From an uncultured Chloroflexia bacterium (GTDB lineage Bacteria; Chloroflexota; Anaerolineae; CG2-30-64-16): a DNA stretch of 64,000 nt. A program made the position numbers and the translations under genes. Under the pieces are notes generated by a model. That model saw only the letters and a list, made by a program, of their open reading frames with translations, was not told the DNA's origin and did not search any database. Location of the stretch: positions 480,001 through 544,000 of the forward strand of contig CAVZDU010000002.1 of assembly GCA_963774265.1 (NCBI GenBank). The letters run 5' to 3'. Positions 1 through 54,808 of this stretch are shown one piece after another. Every line of letters begins with the position of its first letter. The stretch's first letter is position 1.

Positions 1-2
1 CG

Positions 3-608
3 GGTTTTGAGGTTTTCTACCGCGCGAACCCGCTGAACGCGCCGGCGCTGCTCGGCCGCATTGCTGGCCCCGTCCGCTTCGCCTTCGCCATGCGCCAATC
101 GGATCTACACTTTCTGGAGCGCTACGAGCCGGACCTGACGCCGGCGACCGGCCCGCAGCTCTACCTGGATAACCTCACAACGGCCGGCGCTATCCAGCCG
201 AATACTACCGACACGCTGTCTGTCGGTGCGGTGGTTCAGCCGGCGGATGCGGTTCGCATCTACGCGCCTGTGTTCCAGGTTGCGGCAGACACGAGTGGAC
301 CCCAGGCCCCGACCAAGTTTATCGTCCGGAAGAAGTTCAACCCCGGCCTGACCCCCGTGGCCGAAGTACCGATCGATACCGCCGGCGGTGCGGTACGGAG
401 CTTCGCGAAGATTGACCTGTCGCGGCAGCTCCCCGGCCCGTACACTTTGGAGACGAATGCGGCAGGCGCCACCGCGGCCACGATCTACGTGGATGCGGAG
501 CTGGCGGGGTCCAGCGCACTCGGGCTGGTGGACATCCACTGGCAGTCGGCCCAGGACACCGCTCCCGCCGGCGGGGTGTCCTACGTCATCCGGTTTCGGA
601 AACGCTAA
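3..608 (+). CDS. Conserved eCIS-associated hypothetical protein upstream of the sheath (possibly cap-adaptor type), 5'-truncated by the window edge
   Basis: Frame is open from position 3 (GFEVFYRANPLNAP...) through the track ORF at 90; ends LGLVDIHW...YVIRFRKR just before the sheath gene. Confidence 0.6.
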   Translation, partial: GFEVFYRANPLNAPALLGRIAGPVRFAFAMRQSDLHFLERYEPDLTPATGPQLYLDNLTTAGAIQPNTTDTLSVGAVVQPADAVRIYAPVFQVAADTSGPQAPTKFIVRKKFNPGLTPVAEVPIDTAGGAVRSFAKIDLSRQLPGPYTLETNAAGATAATIYVDAELAGSSALGLVDIHWQSAQDTAPAGGVSYVIRFRKR

Positions 609-647
609 GCTGCTTTCGGCAATCATGTACCGGCAAGGAGATGGGAC

Positions 648-2066
648 ATGGCAACATATAAGAGTCCAGGTGTGTACATCGAGGAGCTGCGGGTTTTCCC
701 GCCCTCCATAGCCGCCGTTGAGACGGCCATCCCCGCGTTCATCGGTCCGACCGAGAAGGCGACCGGCACCAACGGCGAGGATCTGACCAATAAGCCCACG
801 CGCATTACTTCCCTGCTCGAATTTGAGCAAATCTTCGGCAAGGCCAAGCTGAAAGATCTGGAGGTGGACGTCATCCAGACCGGGACCAACGTGGCAGTGC
901 TCTTCCATACCGCGCCCGGCCTGCCGGACGACTTCCTTTACTACAGCATGCAGCTCTTCTATGCAAACGGCGGCGGCCCGTGTTACGTGATAGCCACCGC
1001 CACCGCGCACGCCGCGGCCACGCAGGGCATGTTCACCGACGCGACCACCGGCGCGTTCACGGTCCTCGAGGGGTTCGATGAGCCCACGCTGCTCGTGTTT
1101 CCCGACGCCTGTACGCTGAATGACACGCAACACGGCGCGGTCGTGCAGGGAGCCCTGGCGCTGTGCAAGAAGATGCAGGAGCGTTTCGCGATCGTCGACG
1201 TCCGCGATGCCATGCCGGGCGGCACGGACACCAATGCCGAAGTGACATCCAACTTCCGTGCCAACATCGGCAACGACCTGGACGCGCTCAAGTACGGCGC
1301 GGCGTACTTCCCTTACATCCGGACCGCGCTGCCCTGGAGCACCAGTGACGACAAGGTCACGATCAAGTCGCACACCAAGGATGGCGGCGGCGGCGATATC
1401 GTCGCCGATACCAAGCTGTCGGCGATCAAGAACAGCCACACGGCCGTCTACAATGCGATTCAGACCTTCATCGGAGCCGCTACGGTGACTATCCCGCCCA
1501 GCGGCGGCGTGGCGGGTGTGTATGCGCGCATCGACGCCGATCGCGGCGTGTGGAAGGCGCCGGCGAACGCGTCGCTGCTCAGCGTGATCGAACCGGCGGT
1601 GAAGCTCACCGATGCAGCGGGCGGCGACCTGAACATCGACGCGACGACCGGGAAATCGGTCAACGCGATCCGGGCCTTTACGGGCAAGGGCACGTTGGTC
1701 TGGGGGGGCCGCACGCTGGCAGGCAACGACAACGAGAACCGCTATGTCTCGGTCCGCCGCTTCCTCAACTTTGTAGAGGAATCGGTCAAGAAGGCCATCG
1801 CCGCGTTCGTCTTCGAGCCGAACGACGCCAACACCTGGGCCAAGGTTCGCTCGATGATCGAGAGCTTCCTGGTTCGGCAGTGGCGCGACGGCGCGCTGGC
1901 CGGCGCCAAGCCCGACGATGCGTTCTACGTCTCCGTGGGTCTGAACAAGACCATGAGCGCTCAGGACATCCTCGACGGTTACCTGATCGTTGAGATCGGC
2001 CTGGCGATCGTCCGGCCCGCCGAGTTTATCGTGCTGCGCTTCGCGCAGATGATGCAGAAGTCTTAA
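648..2066 (+). CDS. Contractile tail sheath protein (Afp2/3/4-like)
   Basis: N-term MATYKSPGVYIEE, TAIPAFIG, FYANGGGPCY; C-term RGVWKAPAN, LVWGGRTL, YVSVRRF, FVFEPND, RPAEFIVLRF; RBS aaggag upstream. Confidence 0.97.
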   Translation: MATYKSPGVYIEELRVFPPSIAAVETAIPAFIGPTEKATGTNGEDLTNKPTRITSLLEFEQIFGKAKLKDLEVDVIQTGTNVAVLFHTAPGLPDDFLYYSMQLFYANGGGPCYVIATATAHAAATQGMFTDATTGAFTVLEGFDEPTLLVFPDACTLNDTQHGAVVQGALALCKKMQERFAIVDVRDAMPGGTDTNAEVTSNFRANIGNDLDALKYGAAYFPYIRTALPWSTSDDKVTIKSHTKDGGGGDIVADTKLSAIKNSHTAVYNAIQTFIGAATVTIPPSGGVAGVYARIDADRGVWKAPANASLLSVIEPAVKLTDAAGGDLNIDATTGKSVNAIRAFTGKGTLVWGGRTLAGNDNENRYVSVRRFLNFVEESVKKAIAAFVFEPNDANTWAKVRSMIESFLVRQWRDGALAGAKPDDAFYVSVGLNKTMSAQDILDGYLIVEIGLAIVRPAEFIVLRFAQMMQKS

Positions 2067-2078
2067 GGGGGTGAACTG

Positions 2079-2510
2079 ATGGCCGAGTATCCGCTGCCGA
2101 AGTTCCATTTTCAGATCGAGTGGGGCGGCACAAAGATCGGTTTCTCTGAGGTCACCGGGCTGGATGTGGAGACCGAGGTAATCGAGTATCGCGATGGCGC
2201 GATGCGGGAGTACAACAAGGTCAAGCAGCCGGGCATGCAGAAGTACGGCAACATCACCCTGAAGCGCGGGGTGTTCGCGGGCGATAACGAGTTCTTCAAC
2301 TGGTGGAACACGGTGAAGCTGAACAAGATCGAGCGCCGCGACGTGACCATCAGCCTGCTGAACGAGAACCACGAGCCCGTGATGGTCTGGAAGGTGAAGA
2401 ACGCCTGGCCGGCCAAGATTACCTCGACGGACCTGAAAGCGGAGGGTAACGAGACCGCGATCGAGTCGATCGAGCTGGTGCATGAGGGCCTGGTAATCCA
2501 GAACGACTAA
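2079..2510 (+). CDS. Tail tube protein (T4 gp19 family, Afp1-like)
   Basis: YPLPKFHFQIEWGG, FSEVTGL, IEYRDG, ITLKRG, NAWPAK, IESIELVHEG. Confidence 0.96.
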   Translation: MAEYPLPKFHFQIEWGGTKIGFSEVTGLDVETEVIEYRDGAMREYNKVKQPGMQKYGNITLKRGVFAGDNEFFNWWNTVKLNKIERRDVTISLLNENHEPVMVWKVKNAWPAKITSTDLKAEGNETAIESIELVHEGLVIQND

Positions 2511-2534
2511 GGCGACACAGGCGGGAGGGCCGCG

Positions 2535-2975
2535 ATGGGAGTGTACTATCCGCCGGTCGGCTTTCACTTCCGTGTGGAGTTCGACCTGGACGGCGCGGGG
2601 GACACCGAGACCCGGTTTCGGGACGTCTCCGGCCTCTCGATGGAGCTTGAAGAGGAAACGTACAACGAGGGCGGTGAAAACCGCTTCATACGTCACTTCC
2701 CGGTACGCGGTCGCTATCCCGACCTGGTCCTGAAGCGAGGACTCCTGGCTAACTCGAAGGTGCGCGAGTGGTGCCAGGCAGCCATCCAGGATCTCGACAT
2801 TCACCCGGTCACCGTCTGGGTAACAATCCTGAACGACAGCCACGAGCCGCTGCAGACCTATACGTTCGTGAATGCCTGGCCGAAGAAGTGGTCGATCTCG
2901 GATCTGAACGCCGAGGCCTCCGAGATCGTTGTGGAATCCATAGAGCTGGCGTACCAGTACTTCAAGGTAGACTGA
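2535..2975 (+). CDS. Second tail tube protein (Afp5-like)
   Basis: YYPPVGFHFRVEF, EGGENRF, LVLKRG, AWPKKWSISDLNA, VESIELAY. Confidence 0.95.
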   Translation: MGVYYPPVGFHFRVEFDLDGAGDTETRFRDVSGLSMELEEETYNEGGENRFIRHFPVRGRYPDLVLKRGLLANSKVREWCQAAIQDLDIHPVTVWVTILNDSHEPLQTYTFVNAWPKKWSISDLNAEASEIVVESIELAYQYFKVD

Positions 2976-2977
2976 CG

Positions 2978-3163
2978 ATGCCGGTAATCATCAACGAGCT
3001 GGTGGTCAGGGGAACGATCGAGGCGCCGCCGCCCAGAGGCGGGCCCGGCCCTATCGCGGCCCAGGACGGGGTGGGCGCGATGACCGCCGAAGAACGTGCC
3101 GCGCTGATTGCGGCGATCGTCGAGGAAGTGCTGCGGGCGCTGGATCGGATGAAGGAGCGCTAA
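2978..3163 (+). CDS. Small eCIS protein (Afp6/DUF5908-like)
   Basis: MPVIINELVVR...IVEEVLRALDRMKER; ATG at 2978 just after the tube stop (the track ORF from 2768 is over-extended). Confidence 0.85.
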   Translation: MPVIINELVVRGTIEAPPPRGGPGPIAAQDGVGAMTAEERAALIAAIVEEVLRALDRMKER

Positions 3164-3835
3164 ATGGCCGATGGCTTGCTGGCGAAACTGACGATTGTGC
3201 CCTTCGAAGACTCGGACACCGTGCAGGTGGGGCCCCCTGCCGGGCCACCGTTCATCGCGCAGTTCAACCCCGAGTCGTTCACCATAAACACCGAGATCGA
3301 CTACGGCACAGACGACCGCGCCCAGGGTGATGACGGCGGCCCGGCCAAGTTCAAGGGGATCAAACCCCGCTCCTTCACGTTCGATTTCCTGCTTGATGGC
3401 ACGGGCGCGGCAGGCGACGTCAACGACGTGTTCGCCATGATCGCGCTGTTCAGGTCGACCACCGGCTTCTGGGGCAATATCCATCGGCCCCGGTTTCTGC
3501 TGCTGCAGTGGGGCACGTTCCTGGCCACCAGCGTCCTGCAGAGCTACTCGATCACATACAAGCTGTTCCGGCCCGACGGCACTCCGCTGCGCGCGGTCCT
3601 GTCGGCCACTTTTCGAGAGCACAAGTCGAAGGCGTTTGAGCAGCTGACGAAGAACCTCTCGTCGCCGGATCTGACCCATGCACACCTCGTGCAAGAAGGA
3701 GAGCATCTGTCGCTGATCACGTACCGGGTCTACAAGAACCCGCACTACTACTTCCAGGTCGGCGAGAAGAACGGGCTGGACAACTTGCGCGAGGTCGCGA
3801 CCGGCACGACGCTGTACCTGCCGCCGCTGAAGTGA
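3164..3835 (+). CDS. Tube initiator / LysM protein (Afp7-like)
   Basis: QFNPESF, FLLDGTG, HRPRFLLLQWG, YKLFRPDGTPLRA, SSPDLTH, C-terminal LysM-like segment. Confidence 0.92.
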   Translation: MADGLLAKLTIVPFEDSDTVQVGPPAGPPFIAQFNPESFTINTEIDYGTDDRAQGDDGGPAKFKGIKPRSFTFDFLLDGTGAAGDVNDVFAMIALFRSTTGFWGNIHRPRFLLLQWGTFLATSVLQSYSITYKLFRPDGTPLRAVLSATFREHKSKAFEQLTKNLSSPDLTHAHLVQEGEHLSLITYRVYKNPHYYFQVGEKNGLDNLREVATGTTLYLPPLK

Positions 3836-3851
3836 TGGGAAGTGACCCAAT

Positions 3852-5606
3852 ATGACGCTGCCATCCCTGCCTGAAGTCGAGACCCGTCCTACCGCGACCA
3901 TGACCTTCACGGTGAAGGCGAACGGTCAGGAGCTGCCGGGCACCCTGCGGATCGTCTCGATCGACATCACCCGCGAGCTCAACCGCATCCCGACGGCCGC
4001 GTTGGTGCTCTTCGACGGCGATGTCGCGCAGGCGGACTTCGAGGCCAGCAGCGGCGAGCTGCTTGTGCCGGGAAAGGCCCTGGAAATCATGGGGGGCTAC
4101 GCATCGGATGAGAACCTGCTGTTCCGAGGCATTATCACCGGTCAACGAATCCAGGTGCGCGGGCGCGGCGACAGCCGTCTGCATGTTGAGGCTCGCGACG
4201 CCGCCTTCCGCATGACGCTAAACCGGAAGTCCCGCTATTTCACGGAAATGACCGATTCGGATCTGTTCGAACAGATCATCGGGGAGTATGACGCCCTGCA
4301 GCCCGACGTGAGCCCGACGACTACCACGCACCCCGAGGTCGTGCAATACCAGGTCTCGGATTGGGACCTGATCGTGACGCGCGCCGAGACCACGGGCATG
4401 ACCTGCCTGGCCGACAACGGCACCCTGCGCATCCGCAAGCCGGACCTGGGCCAGACGCCGGCCGCGGTCCTGGCGTACGGCCAGAACGTCTTCGACCTGG
4501 ACCTGGCGCTGGACGCCCGGACCCAGCTACAGGATATCAAGGCAGAGGCCTGGGATCCGGCGAATCAGGAGGTCATCACATCTGAGCTGGACGACGTGGC
4601 CTCGCCGCCGGAGGGCAATTTGAGCGGGACGGATCTGGCCGGCAGTGGGGGCGCGCCGGGGGCCGAGCTGCGTCACGGCGGTAACTTGTCGCAAACAGTC
4701 GTCGACGCGTGGGCAGAGGCACGTATGCTGAAATCACGCTTCGCCCGCATTCGCGGGACCGTCCGCTTCCAGGGCACTGAGGCCGTAGTCCCCGGCAGCC
4801 TGGTTGAGCTGAGCGGGATGGGCGATCGATTCAACGGGACCGGCTTCGTTTCAGGGGTGCGTCACACGCTTGGCGCAGGTGATTGGCAGACCGTGATCCA
4901 GCTCGGTCTACGGCCCGAATGGCACGCCGAGCTCTTTCCGGTTAACTCGCCGCCCGCCGGAGGCCTGCATCCTGCCATCCACGGCCTGCAGCCGGGGATC
5001 GTGACGCAGCTGCAGGACGATCCCGCCGGCGAAGATCGCATCCTGGTGCGCCTTCCGCTCATCAGCACGAGCGACAACGGCGTGTGGAGTCGGATCGCCA
5101 CGCTGGATGCGGGCCAGGATCGCGGCACGGTCTTCCGGCCGGAGATCGATGACGAGGTGATCGTGGGTTTCATCGAGGACGACCCAAATCACCCGGTCGT
5201 CCTCGGCATGCTGCACAGCAGCAGCAAGCCGGCGCCCATTCCTGCAGACGACAAAAACCCTCAGAAGGGTTTGGTCACCCGTGGCGGGACGAAGGTGGTA
5301 TTCGATGATGACGCGCCAAGCTTGACCATCGAAACGAAGGCGGGCAACCGCCTTGTGATCGACGACAAGAACACTCAAATCCTGGTCGAGGACCAAAACG
5401 GCAACAAGATCACCCTGAGTCAGGATGGCATCAAGCTCGAAAGCTCGAAGGACATCGTGTTGAAGGCTACCGGCGACGTCTCGATCGAAGGGACGAATGT
5501 CGAGGTGAAGGCGAATGCTTCCGCCAAGATCGAGGGCTCGGGGAGCGCGGCGCTCAAGAGCAGCGGCACCACCGAGGTCAAAGGGTCACTGGTGAATATC
5601 AACTAG
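3852..5606 (+). CDS. VgrG-like spike protein (Afp8-like)
   Basis: ELNRIPTA, VQYQVSDWD, OB-fold DAGQDRG.VFRPEIDDEVIVGF, C-terminal beta-helix ending KGSLVNIN. Confidence 0.95.
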   Translation: MTLPSLPEVETRPTATMTFTVKANGQELPGTLRIVSIDITRELNRIPTAALVLFDGDVAQADFEASSGELLVPGKALEIMGGYASDENLLFRGIITGQRIQVRGRGDSRLHVEARDAAFRMTLNRKSRYFTEMTDSDLFEQIIGEYDALQPDVSPTTTTHPEVVQYQVSDWDLIVTRAETTGMTCLADNGTLRIRKPDLGQTPAAVLAYGQNVFDLDLALDARTQLQDIKAEAWDPANQEVITSELDDVASPPEGNLSGTDLAGSGGAPGAELRHGGNLSQTVVDAWAEARMLKSRFARIRGTVRFQGTEAVVPGSLVELSGMGDRFNGTGFVSGVRHTLGAGDWQTVIQLGLRPEWHAELFPVNSPPAGGLHPAIHGLQPGIVTQLQDDPAGEDRILVRLPLISTSDNGVWSRIATLDAGQDRGTVFRPEIDDEVIVGFIEDDPNHPVVLGMLHSSSKPAPIPADDKNPQKGLVTRGGTKVVFDDDAPSLTIETKAGNRLVIDDKNTQILVEDQNGNKITLSQDGIKLESSKDIVLKATGDVSIEGTNVEVKANASAKIEGSGSAALKSSGTTEVKGSLVNIN

Positions 5607-5632
5607 CACGTCATGTTCGCAAGGAGAAAACC

Positions 5633-5926
5633 ATGCCGCCTGCGGCGCGCATCACCGATATGCACACCTGCCCGATGGTGAACCCGGGCCCCAGCCCGCA
5701 CGTCGGCGGCCCGATCCTGCCGCCCGGCGAGCCGACGGTGCTCATCGGTGGGGTGCCCGCGGCCAGGTTGGGCGACTCGGCAATCTGCGTGGGCCCGCCC
5801 GACACGATCGCCGCCGGGTCCGCCACCGTATTGATCGGCGGCAAGCCCGCAGCTCGCCTGGGTGATGTTACGGCGCACGGCGGCTCGATTGTCGGCGGGC
5901 TCCCGACAGTGTTGATCGGAGGATAG
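5633..5926 (+). CDS. PAAR spike-tip protein (Afp10-like)
   Basis: Three PAAR motifs (PAARITD, PAARLGD x2), HTCP, TVLIGG. Confidence 0.97.
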   Translation: MPPAARITDMHTCPMVNPGPSPHVGGPILPPGEPTVLIGGVPAARLGDSAICVGPPDTIAAGSATVLIGGKPAARLGDVTAHGGSIVGGLPTVLIGG

Positions 5927-5929
5927 GCC

Positions 5930-6349
5930 ATGTTCAACGAGGGGTTCCTCGGCCGCGGCTGGAGCTTTCCGCCCAGCTTCGACCGGGCGGGCGCGGAGGT
6001 TGAAACCACATCCGGAGTGACTGACATCGAGCGCAGCCTGGAGATCATCTTCACCACGGCCCTGGGCGAGCGCGTCATGAACCCGACTTTCGGTTGTAGC
6101 CTGGAGGACATGGTCTTTGAGTCGATGAACACGTCGATGCTGGCGTACGTCCGAAACCTGTTGGAGACGGCGATCCTCTACCATGAGCCGCGCATCGACG
6201 CCGAGCCGGTCGAACTGATCTCCGACGGCCTGGAGGGGATGCTGCGGATCGTGGTGCACTACACCGTGCGCGGCACCAACTCGCGGTTCAATTTCGTCTA
6301 TCCGTTTTATTTGAACACTGCTACCGGCGCGAGCGCGAACGGATTGTGA
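5930..6349 (+). CDS. gp25/GPW-like baseplate wedge, sheath initiator (Afp9-like)
   Basis: FLGRGWSFPP, GERVMNPTFGC, HEPRI, TNSRFNFVYPFY. Confidence 0.95.
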   Translation: MFNEGFLGRGWSFPPSFDRAGAEVETTSGVTDIERSLEIIFTTALGERVMNPTFGCSLEDMVFESMNTSMLAYVRNLLETAILYHEPRIDAEPVELISDGLEGMLRIVVHYTVRGTNSRFNFVYPFYLNTATGASANGL

Positions 6350-9987: not shown

Positions 9988-9993
9988 GCGCGT

Positions 9994-13056: not shown

Positions 13057-13074
13057 TATGTGAGGGGCACGACT

Positions 13075-16248: not shown

Positions 16249-16257
16249 GAGGCATGA

Positions 16258-17574: not shown

Positions 17575-17581
17575 GGGGCGT

Positions 17582-20500
17582 ATGACAGCCAAGACGAAGT
17601 CAACCCTATCGGCCCGTTCCCCGACTCCCGCCGCGACCCGTTCAGGCCGGACCTTCTTCCAGCGAAAGACCGAAGGCGCGGCCGCCTCGCCTTTCTTCCA
17701 CCACGCGCCTGCCGGGGAGAGCCTACAGAATAAGTTAGTCACCGGCCGGCCCGGCGATGCCTTCGAGCGCGAGGCGGACGTGTTCGCCGAGGCCGTAGTC
17801 GGTAATACATCGCCTGCCCCGGCCGGACCGGCGCTGGCCGAACGCGCTACGCCGCTGCGCCGTGCCGGGACCCAGGCGAAGGCCGAGGGCGCAGGCGGGC
17901 TGCGGCCCCGGATCGCTGAGGAGGAGAAGGTCCAGGCCAAGAAAGACGAAGAGCGGCCCCTTCAGGCGAAGGCGAAAGACGAGCCCCTGCAGGCCGGCGC
18001 GGAAGAAGAGAAGCGCATCCAGGCAAAGGCCGAAGGATCACAGGTTCGGGCCGCGGACGATGAGAAAGATCCTGTCCAGGCCAGGCTGGAGGATGAGTGG
18101 ATCCGGCCCGGAGCCGCAACAGAAAAGTCCGCTCAGGACGAGGACGAACCGAAGGCGCCGGTTCAGGCCAGGGCGGACGGGACCGGCGCCGAGCCGGCCG
18201 TTGTCTCGGTCCACGAAACCTTACAGGCCGAGCAAGGCAGGGGTGTTCCACTGCCCGCAGACCTCCACCGGCAGCTTGCGCGCATGTTCGGCGCCGACTT
18301 CGGTGCGGTGCGCATCCACACGGACGGCAATGCGGTCCACCTCGCCCAGGAGGTGCACGCCCAGGCTTTCACCCGCGGCAATGACATCTACTTTAACGCA
18401 GGCCGGTACGACCCGGGTAGCACCCAGGGGCGGCGGCTGCTGGCCCACGAGCTCACGCACACGATCCAACAAGGCACGTCACAGCCCGCCGCGGGCGAGC
18501 CACCCGCCCCCGAACAGCCCCAGGCCCCGCCTCTGGAGAGCACGACGGCAGGCGGGCCTGCCGTTACGGCCGCAGGTCCCGCTGCCAACCCGCCCGACAA
18601 CCGACCGGCCGCTCCCCCGCTGCCCGGCGTTAGTGCAGCCGCGCCTGAGTTCGCTGCCGGCCCAGGACCGACCGGTCCCGGCGTGCCACCACGCGCTGCG
18701 GCGACGGGGGCGACCGAGGCGATCCCGACGGCCGGCGTGCCCGGCGGACCCGCGGCCGCGATGGCCGCCACACCTTCGGAAGCGGGCGTCGAGCCCCCCG
18801 CATCGGCGGCTGTGCCGCCCGAAGGGGTAACCGCGCCACCTGAAGAGGTAGCTGCGCCACCCGAAGGGGTAGCTGCGCCACCCGAAGGGGTAGCTGCGCC
18901 ACCCGAAGGGGTGGCTGCGCCACCCGAAGGGGTAGCTGCGCCACCCGAAGGGGTGGCGGGGGCAGAAGGGGCGGTCGCGCCGGCGGTAATCGAGCGCGCC
19001 CCGGCCTCGCCCGGGGACGACCCGGCTTTCCAGGAGACGATCCGGCAAGTCGGCGCCACGCGGCGCACACAGCGGGCGCACAAGAAGCCTGAGATAAAGA
19101 AAGGCGAGGTTGTTAGCGCGGAGCGGCTGCCCGAGGATGCCCAGTCAACGCAGAACGACCAGCAAGAGCACCTGGTCGTGATTGACGAGACCGCACAGGC
19201 TACCGTTAGGGAGGCCAAACCCTTCACCCCCGAGACCTTCCGCGCGCTGCTCAAAGAGAACCTGCAGGAAATCGAGAACAAGCTTCCGCACGATGAAGAT
19301 GCCGCGGATCGGTTCAAGAGCGAAAAGCCGCTCGAACAGGTCAAGGAGAACATCGGCCGCCAGGTTACCAATGAAGGCAAGAAGGTCGGCGATCCCATCG
19401 TGGGTGAGGCCCAAAACCCTCCGCCGGACAGCAACCTGCCAGTCGAGGCGCCGAAGGATCTCAAAGAAGAGCCGTCCGGCAAGGCGCCGCGTCCCATCGA
19501 TCCCGCCGCCGCGGCCCCCAAGCCGAAAACCGATGCCGAGATTTCGATGGAGGCGGAAAGCCGGTCTCTGGACGAGCAGATGGCCGGGCAACGACTCACC
19601 GAGGAGCAGCTGGCCGAGTCCAACGAGCCACAGTTTCTGCAGGCACTCGACACGAAGCGGCAGGCGCAGGTTGAGGCGGAGGCAGTCCCGGCGCGGTACC
19701 GGGATCAGGAACAAGGGATGCTGGCAAAAGCCAGCGCTCAGGCCGGACGAGCCGGCCGTCAGGGCTTTGGGGGGATGTTCGACACGCGCCAGGGGGTCTT
19801 CGGCGCCGTCTTCACCGACCAGGCAGCCAAAACGGATGTCGGCAAGGAAAACCTGGCCCTGGTTCACCAGACGCTTGCGGACGAATACAAGAGCACCAAA
19901 GATCGTGTGGTCGAAATCCTCGAGCAACTCACCACTACGGTCAACGATACCTTCACCGAGCAGGCCGACGCGGCCAAGAAAACCTTCGAGAAGAAGGTTG
20001 AGGATCAGCTCGACGACATCTACGGGATCACGAGGATCGACGATTGGATCTTCGGTGAAGACACCGAGGCGATCGAGAAAGTCTTCCGAGATGAGAAGCA
20101 GCGCTTCCTCGAGGCTATGGACCGTACGCTGGACGAGATCGCACGCGTCATTGCGGAAAAGCTGAACGCGGCCGTCGACCGGGTCAAAGAGGGGAGGCGC
20201 AGGTCGGAGGACCTTGTCAGCCACCTGAGCGAGGCTCAACAGAAGCAGGCCAAGGACGCGCTGAGCTTCTACATGACGCAGTACGACACGCTCGAAGAAA
20301 GCGTGCATGACAAGGAGCGGGAGCTGGCGAGCTCCCTGGCGGAGTCCTACAAAAGCAATGTAGATGCCCTCCGAGAGTCGTTCGACAAGATCAAGAGCGA
20401 GGTGAGCAAAGGCTGGATCGGCAAGGCTGCCGAGTTCATCTCGGACGTCGCGAGCGCGATCGCAAAGCTGGCGGACCTGCTGTGGTCGGTGCTCTCACGG

Positions 20501-22513
20501 CTCGCCAACCTGATCGGGGATATCATCCGGCATCCCATCCGCTTCCTGGAGAACCTGGGCGCGGGGATCGCGGCTGGGGTCGACACGTTTATCGGAAACA
20601 TCGGTACGGAGCTGGCAACCGGGTTCTTCGACTGGCTCACCGGAGCCGTCGGCGGCGCGGGCATCACGCTCCCGGACAAGTTCGACGCCCGGGGCCTGTT
20701 CAGTCTCGCCGCTCAGGTGGTGGGTCTGAGCTGGGAAACGTTCCGCGAGCTGGCGGTCAATAAGTTCGGGCGGAAGGTGGTCGAGGTCCTGGAAAAGGGA
20801 TCCGAGGTCGCCGGGAAGGGCCTTGAGCTGTTCCGGATCGCTCGCAAGGAAGGGCTGGGCGCGCTCTGGGAGCATGTGAAGGAGATGATCGCCAGCAACG
20901 TCGACGAGATCTATGAGAAGGCCAAAGAGGCGGTGCTCTTTGAGGCCGTCAAGAAGGCTCTGGAATTCGTAGCTTCCCTGTTTACCCCGGCCGGTGCGTT
21001 TATCAAAGCCGTACAGCTGCTATACAGGGCCTTGAAATTCCTCGTCGACAATATCGACCGGATCCGCGAGCTGGTCAACGCGTTTATGGATTCGCTCGAG
21101 CTGGCCGTGGCGGGGCAGGTTGACCTCATCAAGCAGAAGGTTATTCTGGCGCTGCGCCGGCTGCTGGTGCTGGCCATTGATGCCCTCGCCAAGCTCCTGG
21201 GGCTCGGCAACCTGGGCGAGAAGGTGCGCACCGTGCTCAAGGCGATACGCAGCCCAATCATCCGTGCCATGTCCTGGTTCCTGGACCGGCTGAAGCCGTT
21301 GGTGATGCGTGTCGCCAAAACCGTGGAGAAGGCGGTGGGCAAGGTCAAGGCCAAAGTAATGCAGGTCATCCAGTGGTGGAAACAGTCGGAGAGATTCGTG
21401 TCATCCGACGGAGGAACGCACAGGGTCTTTTTCCGAGGGGCAGGCGCCGGCGCTCAACTCGTGGTTGCGAGCCAGGAAGAGGCGGTGAAGACCTTCCTGT
21501 CCCGCAAGGCGACCAAGAGCAAAGATGCCGCAGAGAAGAAGGCCATCAACGTTTCCATCAAGGCGTTCGGCAAGGTGGAGGACTCAGAAGACAAGCTCAC
21601 AAACCTCGAGGCCAAGAAGCAGGCCGCCAAGAGTGAGCCGGTCAAGGATAGGGCTAACAAGGACATCAAATCCGAAAGCGGCAGGCTGCGGGGGCACGTC
21701 TTGGCCTTCTCGCAGACTCTCTCCAAGCTGAGCTTTGCGGAGGAGTCCGACCTGCTGACCAAGACCGAGATCGGCTATGGCAGCGAAAGCGGCTCGAAAT
21801 ACGTTGAGGCGAATCCCCTTACCTATCTGCCCGGCCAATACGTCGGCTCGCCGCCCAAGGAGGATCCGGCCGGTTGGGACCACGCCGTGAAGCTCGACAC
21901 CGATCCCAACACCGGCAAACGCCGCAACAACTGGGTGCGGGGTCATCTTCTCAACGAAAACCTGCACGGGCCCGGCCTGGCATGGAACCTCGTGCCGATC
22001 ACGCAGAAGATCAACAGCGAGATGAAAGGTTCCGCCGAGGCCGAAGCCAAGGAGGCGGTTGCCACAAAGGGCAACATGGTTTACTATCGCACGGATGTCA
22101 CCTTCCACGGCGGTGCGCCTCCCATCAGCGATTTCCCGGCCCAGATTCTCGTAAAGTGGCACTACCTGGAACGGCAGCAAGGGGCCAAACCGCCGAAGTT
22201 CAAGGCGAAGGAAGGAACGAAGAGGAACAGGCACAAGTTCACGATGGTGGCGCCGCCTGCAACCGCCGCGGAGGTCCAGTACAACCTGAACGATATCGGC
22301 CGCGACACCCTCGTCAAAGTAACGGGAATTTCTCATCGTTTCGGCCTGCTCATACAGGCCGAGCTGCGCCGGCGAGGGCGTTTCGAAAGCTATCGCAGCT
22401 TCGCCGAGAGGATGGCCAGGTACCAGAGCAGAAACATGGAGAACCAGGCGCTCTTCGACGAGCATCTCGCGAACATCCGGACTGCCAACAAGAAGGGAGC
22501 GATCGTGTTTTAG
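17582..22513 (+). CDS. DUF4157 (eCIS core domain) cargo/effector with C-terminal DNA/RNA non-specific endonuclease and HhH-like domain
   Basis: ATG 17582 after ggggg; FEREAD motif, QAK repeats, DFGAVRIHTD...AQAFTRGNDIYF...LLAHELTHTIQQ, long helical region, WVRGHLLNENLHGPG..WNLVPITQKIN; 1643 aa. Confidence 0.85.
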   Translation: MTAKTKSTLSARSPTPAATRSGRTFFQRKTEGAAASPFFHHAPAGESLQNKLVTGRPGDAFEREADVFAEAVVGNTSPAPAGPALAERATPLRRAGTQAKAEGAGGLRPRIAEEEKVQAKKDEERPLQAKAKDEPLQAGAEEEKRIQAKAEGSQVRAADDEKDPVQARLEDEWIRPGAATEKSAQDEDEPKAPVQARADGTGAEPAVVSVHETLQAEQGRGVPLPADLHRQLARMFGADFGAVRIHTDGNAVHLAQEVHAQAFTRGNDIYFNAGRYDPGSTQGRRLLAHELTHTIQQGTSQPAAGEPPAPEQPQAPPLESTTAGGPAVTAAGPAANPPDNRPAAPPLPGVSAAAPEFAAGPGPTGPGVPPRAAATGATEAIPTAGVPGGPAAAMAATPSEAGVEPPASAAVPPEGVTAPPEEVAAPPEGVAAPPEGVAAPPEGVAAPPEGVAAPPEGVAGAEGAVAPAVIERAPASPGDDPAFQETIRQVGATRRTQRAHKKPEIKKGEVVSAERLPEDAQSTQNDQQEHLVVIDETAQATVREAKPFTPETFRALLKENLQEIENKLPHDEDAADRFKSEKPLEQVKENIGRQVTNEGKKVGDPIVGEAQNPPPDSNLPVEAPKDLKEEPSGKAPRPIDPAAAAPKPKTDAEISMEAESRSLDEQMAGQRLTEEQLAESNEPQFLQALDTKRQAQVEAEAVPARYRDQEQGMLAKASAQAGRAGRQGFGGMFDTRQGVFGAVFTDQAAKTDVGKENLALVHQTLADEYKSTKDRVVEILEQLTTTVNDTFTEQADAAKKTFEKKVEDQLDDIYGITRIDDWIFGEDTEAIEKVFRDEKQRFLEAMDRTLDEIARVIAEKLNAAVDRVKEGRRRSEDLVSHLSEAQQKQAKDALSFYMTQYDTLEESVHDKERELASSLAESYKSNVDALRESFDKIKSEVSKGWIGKAAEFISDVASAIAKLADLLWSVLSRLANLIGDIIRHPIRFLENLGAGIAAGVDTFIGNIGTELATGFFDWLTGAVGGAGITLPDKFDARGLFSLAAQVVGLSWETFRELAVNKFGRKVVEVLEKGSEVAGKGLELFRIARKEGLGALWEHVKEMIASNVDEIYEKAKEAVLFEAVKKALEFVASLFTPAGAFIKAVQLLYRALKFLVDNIDRIRELVNAFMDSLELAVAGQVDLIKQKVILALRRLLVLAIDALAKLLGLGNLGEKVRTVLKAIRSPIIRAMSWFLDRLKPLVMRVAKTVEKAVGKVKAKVMQVIQWWKQSERFVSSDGGTHRVFFRGAGAGAQLVVASQEEAVKTFLSRKATKSKDAAEKKAINVSIKAFGKVEDSEDKLTNLEAKKQAAKSEPVKDRANKDIKSESGRLRGHVLAFSQTLSKLSFAEESDLLTKTEIGYGSESGSKYVEANPLTYLPGQYVGSPPKEDPAGWDHAVKLDTDPNTGKRRNNWVRGHLLNENLHGPGLAWNLVPITQKINSEMKGSAEAEAKEAVATKGNMVYYRTDVTFHGGAPPISDFPAQILVKWHYLERQQGAKPPKFKAKEGTKRNRHKFTMVAPPATAAEVQYNLNDIGRDTLVKVTGISHRFGLLIQAELRRRGRFESYRSFAERMARYQSRNMENQALFDEHLANIRTANKKGAIVF
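18814..18960 (+). repeat. 21-bp tandem repeat x7 encoding (PPEGVAA)n
   Basis: Near-identical units of gccacccgaaggggtagctgc. Confidence 0.95.
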
Positions 22514-22514
22514 C

Positions 22515-23162
22515 ATGGACTACCGGAAACTCCTGAGACACCTGATCGACGAGCTGCAGGCCAACCCGGGCGTGTTGGTCGGGGATGCCTATCTCGGTGA
22601 AGGGCTCACCAACCGTGAAATGCGCGAGCAGGCCGGCGAGCATGGGCTCAAGCTGGCGGAGCCGGTCCGTGAGTTCTACAGCCAGATCGACGGCGCGATC
22701 ATCCAATGGCGGCTCAAGCCGGAGGCGGCTGCATCTATCCGGCTTCGGGGCGGCGACGGCGCCAACGTCATCCGGGGAGAGGCCTCATTCTACATGCTGA
22801 ATGAGATGCTCCCCGAATGGGCAAACCTGCGAGGCACGCCGTTCGACGAAGGACTGAAGGACAAGGGCCGCATCCGTCGCTTCAGGCCGTTCGACAAGAA
22901 CGTCGAGGAGGCATTCGCGGGGTTTGTGGTTGAAGGGAAGCAGGTGGGCCCTGGGATTTACTACCTCCGCCAGGGCGAGGATCTGGCGCCGCTCGCCGCA
23001 GGTCCCGAGGAATATGTCAGGGCGCTCGTGCAAGCAAGGGCTTTTCAGTGGTGGCAAGACGCGTTTGCCGCCCGGCCCGGCGGCCTGTCCGATGCCGATG
23101 TTGCCTTCTATGTGCCCCAGCTGTTCCAGGGTGAGACCCTCGATGCCTTCAAACGCCGTTAA
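22515..23162 (+). CDS. Putative immunity protein, SMI1/KNR4 (SUKH)-like
   Basis: GLTNREMREQAGEHGLKLAEPVREFYSQIDG resembles the SUKH N-terminal pattern; ATG lies 1 nt past the toxin stop codon. Confidence 0.7.
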   Translation: MDYRKLLRHLIDELQANPGVLVGDAYLGEGLTNREMREQAGEHGLKLAEPVREFYSQIDGAIIQWRLKPEAAASIRLRGGDGANVIRGEASFYMLNEMLPEWANLRGTPFDEGLKDKGRIRRFRPFDKNVEEAFAGFVVEGKQVGPGIYYLRQGEDLAPLAAGPEEYVRALVQARAFQWWQDAFAARPGGLSDADVAFYVPQLFQGETLDAFKRR

Positions 23163-24600
23163 CCTGACCCATTCGCTCGAGTACCTGGAGCAGGTAATCC
23201 ACGCGCGGCTGGCGATTCATTTCGCCGCAGTTGCCGATGGCGGAGGGGATGGGACAGCCATCGAGCTGCCGCCGCTGGGCTTCTACGACGACACGTCGGC
23301 GTTTGGCGAGTTCATGAAACGGCGCCAGCCCGAGTTCGAGGAATATGTCGTGATCCTGCTGGCGCTCGCAGGCCACGTGCAGCCGGACTTCCTCGAGAAG
23401 ACCATCCGTGAAGCCCTGCCGGATGCCGGCGACTACCCGGAGATCGGGGGCGCCCGGGACAGGGAGAGCCGCGGCTTCCTGCCCACGGGTGAGACAGCCC
23501 TTTTTCTGATGGCAGGGGACGACCTGGACCGCCGCTTCGAGGTGCAGCGCATCTTCACGGCAGACCATTGGTTTGCGAAGGAGAACATCCTGCACCTGGA
23601 GCCGGCCCACGAGGGCGAGCCCTACTGGAGTGGCCGGCTGTTGCTCAACCCCGAGTTCATCGAGCTCTTCACGCTCGGCCATGTGTCCAGCCCGCCCTTC
23701 AGCGCGGCGTTTCCCGCGCAGGAAATCCACACCGAGCTCGAATGGGACGACCTGGTCCTCGGTCCCGGCGTGCTAGAGCAGATCGACGAGATCAAGCGGT
23801 GGATCGAGCACAACGATACCCTGCTGGACGATTGGGGCATGCGCGGCAAGATCCGGCCCGGCTACCGCGCGCTGTTCTACGGCCCGCCGGGCACGGGCAA
23901 GACGCTGACCGCCACCCTGCTCGGCAAGTACACGGGTAGCAAAGTCTTCCGCATCGACCTGTCCACCGTGGTCTCGAAGTACATCGGGGAGACGGAGAAA
24001 AACCTGGCGAACCTGTTCGACAGGGCGCGCCACAAGCGATGGATTCTCTTCTTTGACGAGGCGGATGCGCTGTTCGGCAAGCGGACGGACGTGAAGGACG
24101 CCCACGACCGCTACGCGAACCAGGAGGTCTCCTACCTGCTGCAGCGGGTGGAGGAATTTGACGGCCTGGTGATCCTGGCGTCGAACTTCAAGGCGAACCT
24201 GGATGAGGCTTTCGTCCGCCGTTTCAACGCCATCGTGCCCTTCCCGTTCCCCACCGAGTCCGAACGCGTGGCCATCTGGCGCAAATCGCTGCCGGCCGGC
24301 ATTCCCTTCGAAGCCGGCGTCGACCTTCCGGCGCTGCTGGGACGATTCGAGCTGGCGGGTGGCAGTATCGTCAACGGCGTACAGCACGCCTGCCTTGCGG
24401 CGATCGCGCACGGCTCCGAGGTCATCCGGCTGGACGATGCGCTAAAAGGCATCCGCCGGGAGGTCGAGAAGGAGGGCAAAGTGTTCAAGAACTTGCTCAA
24501 GGACGAGGGCATCACAGAACCCCCACGAGTCTCCTCAGCTGCAAAACTACCGGTGCCAACGGTGATTACTGAGATCCCCACAATCCCAAGCGGCCAGTAG
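23143..24600 (+). CDS. eCIS AAA+ ATPase (Afp15-like)
   Basis: Walker A GPPGTGKT, VVSKYIGETEKNL, Walker B LFFDEAD, DRYANQEVSYLLQRVE, DEAFVRRF; probable ATG 23143 overlaps the immunity gene end. Confidence 0.95.
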   Translation: MPSNAVNLTHSLEYLEQVIHARLAIHFAAVADGGGDGTAIELPPLGFYDDTSAFGEFMKRRQPEFEEYVVILLALAGHVQPDFLEKTIREALPDAGDYPEIGGARDRESRGFLPTGETALFLMAGDDLDRRFEVQRIFTADHWFAKENILHLEPAHEGEPYWSGRLLLNPEFIELFTLGHVSSPPFSAAFPAQEIHTELEWDDLVLGPGVLEQIDEIKRWIEHNDTLLDDWGMRGKIRPGYRALFYGPPGTGKTLTATLLGKYTGSKVFRIDLSTVVSKYIGETEKNLANLFDRARHKRWILFFDEADALFGKRTDVKDAHDRYANQEVSYLLQRVEEFDGLVILASNFKANLDEAFVRRFNAIVPFPFPTESERVAIWRKSLPAGIPFEAGVDLPALLGRFELAGGSIVNGVQHACLAAIAHGSEVIRLDDALKGIRREVEKEGKVFKNLLKDEGITEPPRVSSAAKLPVPTVITEIPTIPSGQ

Positions 24601-42085: not shown

Positions 42086-42233
42086 GGCGCCGCTACGCGA
42101 TCAGCTCTGTCGCTGCAGGCCGGCACCCGCCGGATAAGGCGTGGTCCTGCCAACCAGAGTCATTCGCACCTCTGCGCTATCAGCCAGTAGGAGCTGCTGG
42201 CACTCGGTTAGGACCTGACCAACAGTCACACAA

Positions 42234-54595: not shown

Positions 54596-54808
54596 AGTCG
54601 GATCTCCTCTGCGCGGCCAAGCGGATTGATGACAAGGCAATGGTACGTTCTGAACCTGACTGGGATCACACGTATCGGGGCTGCTGCGATGATCCTGTCC
54701 TGGATTGCATGTTACGCATATTGGCGGTGCGTGCCTATGATCTATGTCATGTGAAGAGCACCATTCAGCTCGCATAGGGAATGCAGTAGGACACGGTGGA
54801 TCTGTATT

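What the first reader, a model, noticed from the sequence alone, without database searches (positions are those of the whole stretch)
1..24600. Intact eCIS operon with a built-in nuclease toxin/immunity pair in a probable Chloroflexota genome
Seen: 15 co-directional, mostly abutting or overlapping genes with no frameshift over 24.6 kb. Known: the order sheath, tube, tube, Afp6, LysM, VgrG, PAAR, gp25, Afp11, Afp12, Afp13, tape measure, ATPase defines eCIS. The motifs resemble the Bacteroidota-type (AlgoCIS/MAC-like) lineage as I recall it. Inference: a functional syringe of that lineage in a high-GC, apparently Chloroflexota host, combining a self-protected nuclease cargo with a possibly membrane-tethered fibre, is the best candidate here for an undescribed system. 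The cap gene (Afp16/DUF4255) is not in the window and is expected upstream.
Basis: partly seen in the sequence, partly recalled or inferred. Interest (0 to 1): 0.85.

Follow-up and report, generated by a model that had tools for sequence, protein, structure and literature searches.

The report
Phage-tail syringe with DNase cargo
This is an intact phage-tail-like injection machine in a probable Chloroflexota genome, carrying a DNA-cutting toxin with its own antidote, and its baseplate fibre has a predicted membrane-spanning helix that may tether the machine to a membrane.

Summary
Seventeen co-directional, tightly packed genes form a complete contractile injection system (CIS). They run from a cap gene 160 nt upstream of the window to an AAA ATPase ending at window 24600. 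No frame is broken.

By sequence, the closest solved systems are the Anabaena thylakoid-anchored CIS (tCIS) and AlgoCIS, which is classed in clade Ib. The locus shares their two-part cap and their crown-type (Cis19/Alg19) fibre. It lacks Afp13.

The cargo is a 1643-aa protein with an eCIS_core (DUF4157) domain, a long linker, a His-Me-finger nuclease and a helix-hairpin-helix tail. This architecture is already described and widespread. The 215-aa gene after it is a credible immunity protein. A complex model scored 0.74 against a best control of 0.00. The toxin-immunity order recurs on both of the 2 metagenome contigs found.

The host is probably Chloroflexota. Its 16S gene matches two recalled phylum probes exactly, and no LpxC or Omp85 was found.

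The less ordinary part is a strongly hydrophobic helix (residues 569-592) in the fibre. It is conserved in three other fibres and absent from a fourth. The fibre has no recognisable receptor-binding domain. This suggests membrane tethering, which is unproven.

Verdict: a new variant within a known kind, of moderate interest.

The parts
1..608 (+). orfX, a Cis16B-like cap adaptor. The 252-aa gene starts 150 nt upstream of the window at C2:479850. The cap gene itself (Pvc16_N, 199 aa) lies at C2:479241-479840, outside the window.
   Evidence: No Pfam or NCBIfam hit. It has 37 homologues at 46-85% identity. A profile of 26 of them hits only tCIS All3326, from cap-complex entry 7b5i, at E 7.6e-4. 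Cap.
648..2066 (+). Sheath (single sheath gene).
   Evidence: Pfam Phage_sheath_1C and Phage_sheath_1. PDB phmmer: All3325 7e-134, AlgoCIS sheath 2e-128, Pvc2 2e-58.
2079..2975 (+). Two tube genes (2079-2510 and 2535-2975).
   Evidence: Phage_T4_gp19 at 1e-48 and 8e-40.
2978..3163 (+). DUF5908 small protein (Afp6-like).
   Evidence: PF19265 at E 2.4e-12.
3164..3835 (+). Tube-to-spike adaptor with a CIS_tube domain (Cis7-like).
   Evidence: PF19266 at E 3.8e-39. LysM was not reported at E <= 0.01.
3852..5926 (+). VgrG spike (3852-5606) and PAAR tip (5633-5926).
   Evidence: Phage_base_V and Phage_GPD; PAAR_motif 7e-26.
5930..6349 (+). gp25-like baseplate wedge.
   Evidence: GPW_gp25 at 5.5e-23.
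6346..9987 (+). Cis11 (large Baseplate_J protein, 1213 aa).
   Evidence: PDB phmmer: All3317 7e-155, AlgoCIS Baseplate_J protein 8e-126, Pvc11 2e-41. TIGR02243 below its cut-off.
9994..13056 (+). Cis12 baseplate protein (1020 aa).
   Evidence: PDB phmmer: All3315 2e-148, Algo12 8e-130, Pvc12 6e-22.
13060..16248 (+). Crown-type (Cis19/Alg19) baseplate fibre of 1062 aa. The C-terminus is about 100 aa of PPVVQ repeats, and no receptor-binding domain was found.
   Evidence: PDB phmmer: All3314 5e-40 and the AlgoCIS 1443-aa PKD-domain protein (9wt0_a) 7e-40. Aligned at residues 5-534 and 809-931 only. Pfam gives only Extensin_1, below its cut-off.
14764..14835 (+). Predicted transmembrane helix of the fibre (residues 569-592).
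   Evidence: The Kyte-Doolittle 19-residue maximum is 2.35, against at most 1.83 for the other 16 CIS proteins. The helix is conserved in P0002, L016 and L031 and absent in L017.
16258..17574 (+). Tape measure protein.
   Evidence: CIS_TMP at 2.2e-102.
17582..22513 (+). Cargo toxin of 1643 aa, counted from the ATG at 17582. It has an eCIS_core (DUF4157) domain with an HExxH motif at about 18248-18478, then a linker of about 1100 aa, then a His-Me-finger nuclease at about 21740-22250, then a helix-hairpin-helix tail to 22510.
   Evidence: Pfam. 977 clusters share the C-terminal domain. H193, N207, N216 and E224 are invariant. The tail matches ComEA and EEPD1. AF2 pLDDT is 93.8, and the fold matches NucA, EndA, Sda1, EndoG and EsaD.
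22515..23162 (+). Immunity protein candidate (215 aa).
   Evidence: SMI1_KNR4 at only E 0.089. It has 5 homologues at about 50% identity. Complex model ipSAE 0.74 against a best control of 0.00. The neighbourhood is conserved on 2 of 2 contigs.
23143..24600 (+). AAA ATPase (Afp15-like). The start is taken at the ATG at 23143.
   Evidence: Pfam AAA at 3.4e-28. NCBIfam gives AAA relatives only, all below their cut-offs. L034 holds a 73%-identical copy directly after the immunity gene.

Best explanation
The locus is an intact contractile injection system of the tCIS/AlgoCIS type (AlgoCIS is classed as clade Ib), carried by a probable Chloroflexota bacterium and probably acquired horizontally.

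Shown by sequence:
- All structural parts are present: a short cap plus a cap adaptor, one sheath, two tube proteins, a tube-spike adaptor, VgrG and PAAR, gp25, Cis11, Cis12, a crown-type fibre, a tape measure and an AAA ATPase.
- A cargo gene and a small gene sit between the tape measure and the ATPase.

Inferred mechanism:
- The particle assembles in the cytoplasm.
- The DUF4157-linker-nuclease protein is loaded into the tube lumen, as found for the DUF4157 proteins Cgo1 and Cgo2 of AlgoCIS.
- The 215-aa protein binds over the nuclease active site and protects the producer, and perhaps kin, from the DNase.
- Sheath contraction drives the spike and cargo into a target cell, where the nuclease degrades DNA. 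Its helix-hairpin-helix tail helps it bind DNA.

How the machine is deployed is not settled. The crown fibre carries a conserved, strongly hydrophobic helix and has no recognisable receptor-binding domain. I therefore favour a particle tethered by its baseplate to the producer's membrane, as in tCIS or T6SS subtype iv (about 0.45). Free release as an eCIS is the next most likely mode (about 0.35).

The confidence given below refers to the identity of the system and the cargo/immunity reading, not to the tether.
For: - Core families.
- Closest solved systems for four proteins are tCIS, then AlgoCIS. E-values are sheath 7e-134 / 2e-128, Cis11 7e-155 / 8e-126, Cis12 2e-148 / 8e-130, fibre 5e-40 / 7e-40. 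PVC and Afp score far lower.
- Two-part cap: the 199-aa cap has the Pvc16_N domain only, and the orfX profile hits All3326 of the tCIS cap complex at E 7.6e-4, the only hit at E <= 10.
- Cargo precedent: AlgoCIS Cgo1 and Cgo2 (PMC8894135, passages). Architecture precedent: PMC8213781 (passages).
- Nuclease: Endonuclea_NS_2 scores 24.6 bits here and 28-32 bits in 3 of the 6 long homologues scanned. Four of those 6 also carry eCIS_core. H, N, N and E are invariant across 40 sequences. The model has pLDDT 93.8, and the listed PDB fold matches are mostly His-Me-finger nucleases.
- Immunity: ipSAE 0.74, best of 3 controls 0.00. In the tool's calibration the mark was reached by 58 of 80 solved complexes and 2 of 110 mismatched pairs. 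The runs agree in at least 91% of contacts and the partner's pLDDT is at least 92. The interface covers residues next to the invariant H193 and N216. Both of the 2 metagenome contigs that hold an immunity homologue have the nuclease domain directly upstream, and one has the ATPase directly downstream.
- Horizontal origin: the orfX family was found in 0 of 400 other genomes of the phylum. The 40 closest relatives have sheath hits of at most 48% identity, over the C-terminal half only. A fully syntenic locus sits in a Kiloniellaceae MAG.
- Tether. Precedent: tCIS Cis13 (PMC8894136, passages).
Against: - Nothing here shows expression or assembly.
- The window's own Endonuclea_NS_2 score is below Pfam's cut-off. 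No fold match reaches E <= 0.001 (best 3.2e-3, TM-score 0.24 by query length and 0.41 by target length).
- The immunity protein has no family above threshold (SMI1_KNR4, E 0.089). The complex score is the model's own confidence, obtained with my own alignments.
- Against the tether: no transmembrane predictor was available. The charges flanking the helix are about balanced, so topology is undefined. The segments after the helix (residues 809-931) are homologous to parts of All3314 and of the AlgoCIS 9wt0_a protein. The AF2 model of the fibre was useless (pLDDT 36).
- The host phylum rests on probe sequences recalled from memory.
Confidence: 0.8

Rival explanations
1. It is an ordinary released eCIS, like AlgoCIS. 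Particles float free in the cytoplasm, leave on lysis and bind targets through the fibre. The hydrophobic helix is a buried core of the trimeric fibre or inserts into the target membrane, rather than anchoring the particle in the producer.
For: - AlgoCIS, the second-closest solved system, is extracellular, and its Alg19 fibre binds bacterial cells (PMC8894135; bioRxiv 10.1101/2025.10.08.681156, passages).
- The fibre regions on both sides of the helix are homologous to the AlgoCIS 9wt0_a protein and to All3314.
- P0002 and L016 carry Ig-like or beta-sandwich-looking C-terminal domains. I judged this by eye from the sequences.
Against: - The helix scores 2.35 on Kyte-Doolittle and about -3 kcal/mol on the recalled Hessa scale. 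Every other CIS protein scores at least +5.5. Buried helices in soluble proteins are rarely this hydrophobic.
- The window's own fibre ends in proline repeats, with no binding domain found by Pfam.
Confidence: 0.35
2. It is a cytoplasmic CIS that kills the producing cell under stress, like the Streptomyces and Roseiflexus systems.
For: - Characterised Chloroflexota CISs are intracellular (PMC12998442, abstract and passages).
- A DNase would serve self-killing.
Against: - Those systems belong to clade IId. This locus scores far closer to tCIS and AlgoCIS.
- A dedicated immunity gene argues against programmed self-intoxication as the main use.
Confidence: 0.1
3. It is the tail module of a prophage, a tailocin, or a canonical T6SS.
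For: It shares sheath, tube, gp25 and Baseplate_J families with phage tails and T6SS.
Against: - No capsid, portal, terminase or integrase appeared among the flanking ORFs scanned, and there is no tRNA in the window.
- The eCIS-specific families Pvc16_N, CIS_TMP, CIS_tube, DUF5908 and eCIS_core are present.
- DotU and IcmF_C were not found in the 84%-complete genome.
Confidence: 0.03

Closest known systems
tCIS of Anabaena sp. PCC 7120 (all3313-all3327; PDB 7b5h and 7b5i)
   Same: - Best phmmer match for the sheath, Cis11, Cis12 and the crown fibre.
- Two-protein cap, since the orfX profile hits All3326.
- Large Cis11 (1213 aa against 1231 aa).
- A baseplate-attached protein with a predicted transmembrane helix.
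   Different: - There is no Cis13 gene. Cis11 and Cis12 are only 6 nt apart.
- The hydrophobic helix sits in the crown-type protein instead.
- The host is not a cyanobacterium, so it is presumed to lack thylakoids.
- The fibre middle (residues 535-808) does not align with All3314.
AlgoCIS of Algoriphagus machipongonensis (clade Ib; PDB 7adz, 7aeb, 9wt0)
   Same: - Second-best match for the same four proteins.
- Alg16A/Alg16B-type cap and Alg19-type fibre.
- DUF4157 cargo proteins encoded in the cluster (PMC8894135, passages).
   Different: - Alg19 is described with an Ig-rich C-terminal domain. Here the fibre has a hydrophobic helix and proline repeats.
- Here the cargo carries a nuclease domain and is followed by an immunity gene.
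Roseiflexus and other Chloroflexota/Deinococcota CISs (clade IId)
   Same: A CIS in the same phylum (PMC12998442, abstract and passages).
   Different: They belong to a different clade, related to Streptomyces cytoplasmic CISs. The sheath hits in 40 relatives of this genome are at most 48% identical, over the C-terminal half only.
DUF4157-linked eCIS toxins and eCIS toxin-immunity pairs (Geller et al. 2021)
   Same: - N-terminal DUF4157 with an HExxH motif, a linker that can exceed 1000 aa, and a C-terminal toxin domain.
- Immunity genes next to some eCIS toxins (PMC8213781, passages).
   Different: This particular nuclease/immunity pair was not seen named in the passages I read. The supplements were closed.
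Secreted His-Me-finger nucleases (NucA, EndA, Sda1, EndoG, Serratia nuclease) and the T7SS toxin EsaD
   Same: The fold matches are mostly this class. An invariant His and two invariant Asn sit in a WVRxHLLN...NLVP motif.
   Different: Sequence identity is 10-17%, and Foldseek E is 3e-3 at best. Here the domain is the C-terminal module of a CIS cargo and has an added helix-hairpin-helix tail.

Membership tests
eCIS/CIS superfamily (Afp/PVC-like) | Sheath, gp19-type tube, VgrG spike, PAAR, gp25, Baseplate_J (Afp11) and Afp12 in one cluster. | tested here: met
   Pfam; PDB phmmer.
eCIS/CIS superfamily (Afp/PVC-like) | The eCIS-specific genes: DUF4255/Pvc16_N cap, CIS tape measure, AAA ATPase and DUF4157. 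| tested here: met
   Pvc16_N at 6e-32; CIS_TMP at 2e-102, eCIS_core at 6e-30 and AAA at 3e-28.
eCIS/CIS superfamily (Afp/PVC-like) | No phage head or replication genes and no T6SS membrane complex. | tested here: met
   None among the flanking ORFs scanned. DotU and IcmF_C were not found in the 84%-complete genome. Not every small ORF was scanned.
eCIS in the strict sense (released particles) | Particles are released and act outside the producer. | not testable with these tools
   The mode of action in this clade cannot be read from sequence (PMC12998442).
Clade Ib (AlgoCIS, MAC, T6SS subtype iv; tCIS clusters with AlgoCIS and T6SS subtype iv) | Sheath and baseplate proteins are nearest to members of this clade. 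| tested here: met
   Bit scores for tCIS / AlgoCIS / PVC: sheath 450 / 432 / about 200; Cis11 520 / 424 / 145; Cis12 499 / 438 / 80. No tree with dbeCIS references was built.
Clade Ib (AlgoCIS, MAC, T6SS subtype iv; tCIS clusters with AlgoCIS and T6SS subtype iv) | A short cap plus a separate cap adaptor (Cis16A/B, Alg16A/B). | tested here: met
   The cap is 199 aa. The orfX profile matches All3326 at E 7.6e-4 over positions 26-110 only. This is remote homology.
Clade Ib (AlgoCIS, MAC, T6SS subtype iv; tCIS clusters with AlgoCIS and T6SS subtype iv) | A crown/Alg19-type fibre (tCIS-crown N-terminus, eBAP4 in PMC12923769). | tested here: met
   All3314 at 5e-40 and the AlgoCIS 9wt0_a protein at 7e-40. 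The authors' eBAP HMMs were not available.
tCIS (thylakoid-anchored CIS) | A small Cis13 fibre with a C-terminal transmembrane helix, encoded between Cis11 and Cis12. | tested here: not met
   The gap between Cis11 and Cis12 is 6 nt, and no such ORF exists in the operon.
tCIS (thylakoid-anchored CIS) | Anchoring in thylakoid membrane stacks. | not testable with these tools
   The host is probably Chloroflexota. Anchoring needs imaging.
DNA/RNA non-specific endonuclease (His-Me finger, Endonuclea_NS_2) | Family HMM match above the cut-off. | tested here: inconclusive
   The window protein scores 24.6 bits against a cut-off of 27. Homologues P0010, P0016 and P0019 score 28-32 bits.
DNA/RNA non-specific endonuclease (His-Me finger, Endonuclea_NS_2) | Catalytic His and metal-binding Asn are conserved, and the fold is beta-beta-alpha-metal. 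| tested here: met
   H193, N207, N216 and E224 are invariant in 40 sequences. The model has pLDDT 93.8, and the top fold matches are NucA, EndA, Sda1, EndoG and EsaD.
SUKH (SMI1/KNR4) immunity proteins | Family HMM match or SUKH fold. | tested here: inconclusive
   PF09346 at E 0.089 and 13.8 bits, covering profile positions 8-123 of 125. The fold was not searched.
Cognate toxin-immunity pair | Adjacent genes, a conserved neighbourhood, and predicted binding over the active site. | tested here: met
   The gap is 1 nt. 2 of 2 contigs keep the order. ipSAE 0.74 against a best control of 0.00. Protection itself is untested.

The most novel reading that the evidence does not exclude
This is a new deployment mode within clade Ib. 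The baseplate is tethered to the cytoplasmic membrane of a bacterium in which no outer-membrane markers were found. The tether is a transmembrane helix built into the crown (Cis19/Alg19-type) fibre. There is no Cis13 and no TssJLM-type complex, and a proline-rich tail may reach into the wall. Such a machine would fire a DNase outward on contact or on cell breakage, with the immunity gene protecting kin. The same fibre design in an alphaproteobacterial MAG would make it a transferable anchoring solution, not a host quirk.
Probability: 0.4. Interest if true: 0.75.

Novelty: new variant of a known kind. Interest (0 to 1): 0.5.

Why it matters
Clade Ib and its relative tCIS already hold systems with three modes of action: free (AlgoCIS, MAC), thylakoid-anchored (tCIS) and membrane-anchored (T6SS subtype iv). 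What decides the mode is an open question.

A crown fibre that has gained a transmembrane helix and lost its binding domain would be a simple, testable switch between released and anchored use. Here it occurs in a phylum whose known CISs belong to another clade.

The cargo/immunity pair is also a clean case for testing how DUF4157 cargos are held harmless before loading.

If the helix turns out to be a buried core, the locus is an ordinary, well-preserved clade Ib CIS.

Tried and rejected
- AF2 model of the whole fibre from a 4-row alignment: mean pLDDT 36. It was unusable and was not sent to fold search.
- Single-sequence PDB searches of orfX and of the toxin C-terminal domain gave nothing useful. 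Only the profiles did.
- NCBIfam gave no named family for the sheath, the adaptor, the fibre, the toxin or the immunity protein.
- The search of 5.8 billion proteins with fibre residues 535-810 returned only the window's own protein and P0002. That search needs shared 5-residue words and scored only the top 7999 candidates, so rarity is suggested, not shown.
- The look-up of sequencing runs: none was listed and no RNA holder was listed.
- The listing of cluster members added no organism names beyond one Chloroflexota MAG.
- I first filed the fibre as eBAP3. Passages of PMC12923769 place the tCIS crown N-terminus in eBAP4, so I corrected this.
- Prophage and T6SS readings were rejected (see rivals).
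- No sheath or Cis11 tree was built, because reference sequences of the dbeCIS clades were not available as usable records.
- Supplementary Table 2 of PMC8894136 and the Supplementary Data of PMC12923769 could list crown fibres with transmembrane helices. Supplements were closed, so my statement that this is not described rests on the main texts found by searches, and on the term look-ups.

Full report
**Observation.** The window is G000:C2:480001-544000. On the + strand, ORFs with high third-position GC run almost without gaps from the window start to 24600.

Pfam names most of them:
- sheath, 648-2066
- two gp19-type tube proteins, 2079-2510 and 2535-2975
- DUF5908, about 2978-3163
- a CIS_tube protein, 3164-3835
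- VgrG, 3852-5606
- PAAR, 5633-5926
- gp25, 5930-6349
- a Baseplate_J protein of 1213 aa, 6346-9987
- CIS tape measure, 16258-17574
- an eCIS_core plus Endonuclea_NS_2 protein, 17582-22513
- an AAA ATPase, 23143-24600

A Pvc16_N protein of 199 aa sits at C2:479241-479840. A sigma-70-like site (TTGACA-17-TATGCT) lies about 43 nt before it. Between the cap and the sheath lies a 252-aa gene, orfX, which the window cuts.

The system therefore has 17 genes over about 25.4 kb, with intergenic distances of -20 to +39 nt. No gene is broken. By contrast, sucA and a GH3 gene further along the window each appear as two overlapping ORFs.

**Which system it is.** phmmer against all PDB chains gives the same ranking for four proteins: Anabaena tCIS first, AlgoCIS second, then a Salmonella CIS, then PVC and Afp.

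| Protein | tCIS match | E-value | AlgoCIS E-value | PVC E-value |
|---|---|---|---|---|
| Sheath | All3325 | 7e-134 | 2e-128 | 2e-58 (Pvc2) |
| Cis11 | All3317 | 7e-155 | 8e-126 | 2e-41 |
| Cis12 | All3315 | 2e-148 | 8e-130 | 6e-22 |
| Fibre (1062 aa) | All3314 | 5e-40 | 7e-40 (9wt0_a) | no match |

- AlgoCIS is classed in clade Ib with MAC and T6SS subtype iv (PMC8894135, passages).
- tCIS clusters with AlgoCIS and T6SS subtype iv in one clade, and the modes of action in that clade differ (PMC12998442, passages).
- Both solved systems have a short cap plus a second cap protein. Here the cap is 199 aa. A profile of 26 orfX homologues hits only All3326, from the tCIS cap-complex entry, at E 7.6e-4. 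I read orfX as the cap adaptor.
- All3314 is Cis19, the 'crown' of tCIS. The authors found no homologue of it in AFP.
- A 2026 catalogue places the first 200 residues of the tCIS crown in its anchor class eBAP4 (PMC12923769, passages). I could not run its HMMs.

**Host and origin.** The genome has one 16S gene (C5, about 174.7-176.2 kb). It carries exact sites for the Chloroflexi probes GNSB-941 and CFX1223, at the expected positions. It has no site within two mismatches for CFX784, and none in the 16S gene for CFX109. The probe sequences are recalled from memory, and their specificity is imperfect.

LpxC and Omp85 were not found in the 84%-complete genome, while the same searches rang in the expected control genomes. 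'Probably Chloroflexota, without detectable outer-membrane markers' is a fair statement.

The CIS looks imported:
- Twenty of the 41 genomes in that search (own included) have a sheath match, but the hits in relatives are at most 48% identical, over the C-terminal half only.
- Among those 40 relatives the fibre query gave only three weak partial hits (E 3e-6 to 9e-4), and no orthologue.
- The orfX family was found in 0 of 400 other genomes sampled from the phylum.
- The best relative found among species representatives is a Kiloniellaceae (Alphaproteobacteria) MAG. Its locus is syntenic from orfX to the start of the toxin, at 35-73% identity.
- A Saprospiraceae MAG is next.
- Closer orfX homologues (76-85%) exist on short unnamed contigs. 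One 54% homologue is labelled Chloroflexota bacterium.
- GC content does not mark the region, and there is no tRNA in the window.

Characterised Chloroflexota CISs (Roseiflexus and relatives) belong to clade IId and are cytoplasmic (PMC12998442, abstract and passages). A CIS in this phylum is not new, but the literature I searched describes no CIS of this type (clade Ib or tCIS-like) in the phylum.

**Cargo and immunity.** The 1643-aa protein has three parts:
- an eCIS_core (DUF4157) domain with an intact HELTH motif
- a repeat-rich and helical linker of about 1100 aa
- a C-terminal module

This is the architecture described by Geller et al., who also reported immunity genes next to some eCIS toxins (PMC8213781, passages). 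In AlgoCIS, two DUF4157 proteins are cargo in the tube lumen.

Evidence on the C-terminal module (the last 381 aa):
- It has 977 representative clusters at E <= 0.001, mostly at the ends of proteins of 1000-1800 aa.
- Of the 6 long homologues scanned, 4 carry eCIS_core and 5 carry Endonuclea_NS_2, 3 of them above the cut-off.
- In an alignment of 40 sequences, H193, N207, N216 and E224 are invariant within WVRxHLLN...HGPG...NLVP.
- The profile matches ComEA and EEPD1 helix-hairpin-helix units in the tail, and Sda1 weakly in the core.
- The AF2 model is confident (pLDDT 93.8). Its listed PDB fold matches are mostly His-Me-finger nucleases: NucA, EndA, Sda1, EXOG, EndoG, Serratia nuclease and the T7SS toxin EsaD. 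No match reaches E <= 0.001; the best is 3.2e-3.

I conclude that it is a DNA-binding non-specific nuclease.

The next gene starts 1 nt later, encodes 215 aa and has only a sub-threshold SUKH-1 match (E 0.089). Three lines support it as the cognate immunity protein:
- Position, directly after the toxin.
- A complex model with ipSAE 0.74 against a best of 3 controls of 0.00. In the tool's calibration the mark was reached by 58 of 80 solved complexes and 2 of 110 mismatched pairs, and those counts hold only roughly with my own alignments. The runs agree in at least 91% of contacts, and the partner's pLDDT is at least 92. The contacts lie around the catalytic residues.
- A conserved neighbourhood. 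Both metagenome contigs found with an immunity homologue have the nuclease domain directly upstream. One has a 73%-identical ATPase directly downstream.

The model supports binding but does not show it.

**The fibre.** Residues 5-534 and 809-931 align with All3314 and with the 1443-aa AlgoCIS PKD-domain protein 9wt0_a, which I take to be Alg19. The middle does not align.

In that middle, residues 569-592 form the only strongly hydrophobic stretch in the whole system.

| Measure | Fibre helix | Other 16 CIS proteins |
|---|---|---|
| Kyte-Doolittle maximum (19 residues) | 2.35 | at most 1.83 |
| Sum on the recalled Hessa scale (kcal/mol) | -3.0 | at least +5.5 |

- The stretch, with its CRM-D-V preface, is conserved in the only other protein found with this middle region (P0002).
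- It is also conserved in the Kiloniellaceae fibre and in a near-copy of that fibre in a second genome of the same order.
- The Saprospiraceae fibre lacks it.
- After a conserved Cys-rich motif, the window's fibre ends in about 100 aa of PPVVQ repeats and a basic tail. Pfam found no binding domain.

In tCIS the membrane anchor is a different protein, Cis13. Its transmembrane helix penetrates the thylakoid membrane, and its removal frees the particles. That gene is absent here.

The hydrophobic helix in the crown protein is therefore a plausible alternative anchor. Several points weigh against that reading:
- No dedicated transmembrane predictor was available.
- The flanking charges do not fix a topology.
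- The regions after the helix are shared with All3314 and the AlgoCIS 9wt0_a protein.
- The AF2 model failed (pLDDT 36).
- The term 'transmembrane' does not occur in the main texts of the fibre catalogue or of the AlgoCIS firing preprint. The supplements were closed.

**Verdict.**
- The system type, the cargo architecture and the idea of eCIS-linked immunity are all known.
- The new elements are a CIS of this type in Chloroflexota and a crown fibre with a conserved predicted transmembrane helix and no binding domain.
- I rate it a new variant of a known kind, with interest 0.5.
- I give a 0.4 chance that it represents a new way of anchoring such machines.

Noticed in passing
Upstream of the window: G000:C2:460328-478387 (locus L023 328-18387): A Tc (ABC) toxin complex locus lies directly before the CIS, on the same strand. 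It holds a 1906-aa SpvB/TcdB-mid protein with FG-GAP repeats, a 728-aa ORF without a Pfam hit, and a TcA-like component read as two overlapping ORFs (1949 aa with ABC_toxin_N and a Neuraminidase-like domain; 898 aa with TcA_TcB_BD). From memory, Serratia pADAP also pairs Tc genes with a CIS.
   Followed up: partly
window 24906-40375: Three giant + strand ORFs (1659, 1693 and 2073 aa) carry Laminin_G_3, TSP3, Big, CARDB and DUF11 domains. They overlap one another in different frames, and the first has an implausible Arg/Pro-rich N-terminus. They could be one or more surface proteins with frameshifts or assembly errors.
   Followed up: partly
window 58139-60632 and 52375-54775 (- strand): sucA (2-oxoglutarate dehydrogenase E1) and a GH3 glycosidase each read as two overlapping ORFs that carry successive parts of the family profile. 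These are frameshifts, either pseudogenes or indel errors of the assembly. zwf (54809-56440) and sucB (56484-57851) are whole.
   Followed up: no
window 43568-44125 (+): An orphan Imm5-like immunity gene (E 1.3e-22) sits next to a GNAT acetyltransferase (43138-43581) and a DUF4143 fragment (41749-42153, - strand). The stretch has lower GC (58-60%).
   Followed up: no
window about 18800-19000 (toxin linker): The toxin linker contains about six tandem copies of a PPEGVAA-like unit within a long Pro/Ala-rich stretch. This coincides with the AT-skew peak of 0.32 at 18-20 kb.
   Followed up: no
L016 17784-22832 (Kiloniellaceae MAG): The syntenic DUF4157 protein matches the window's toxin only over its N-terminal 300 residues or so. 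The C-terminal toxin module therefore differs between the two loci, which is polymorphic-toxin behaviour.
   Followed up: no
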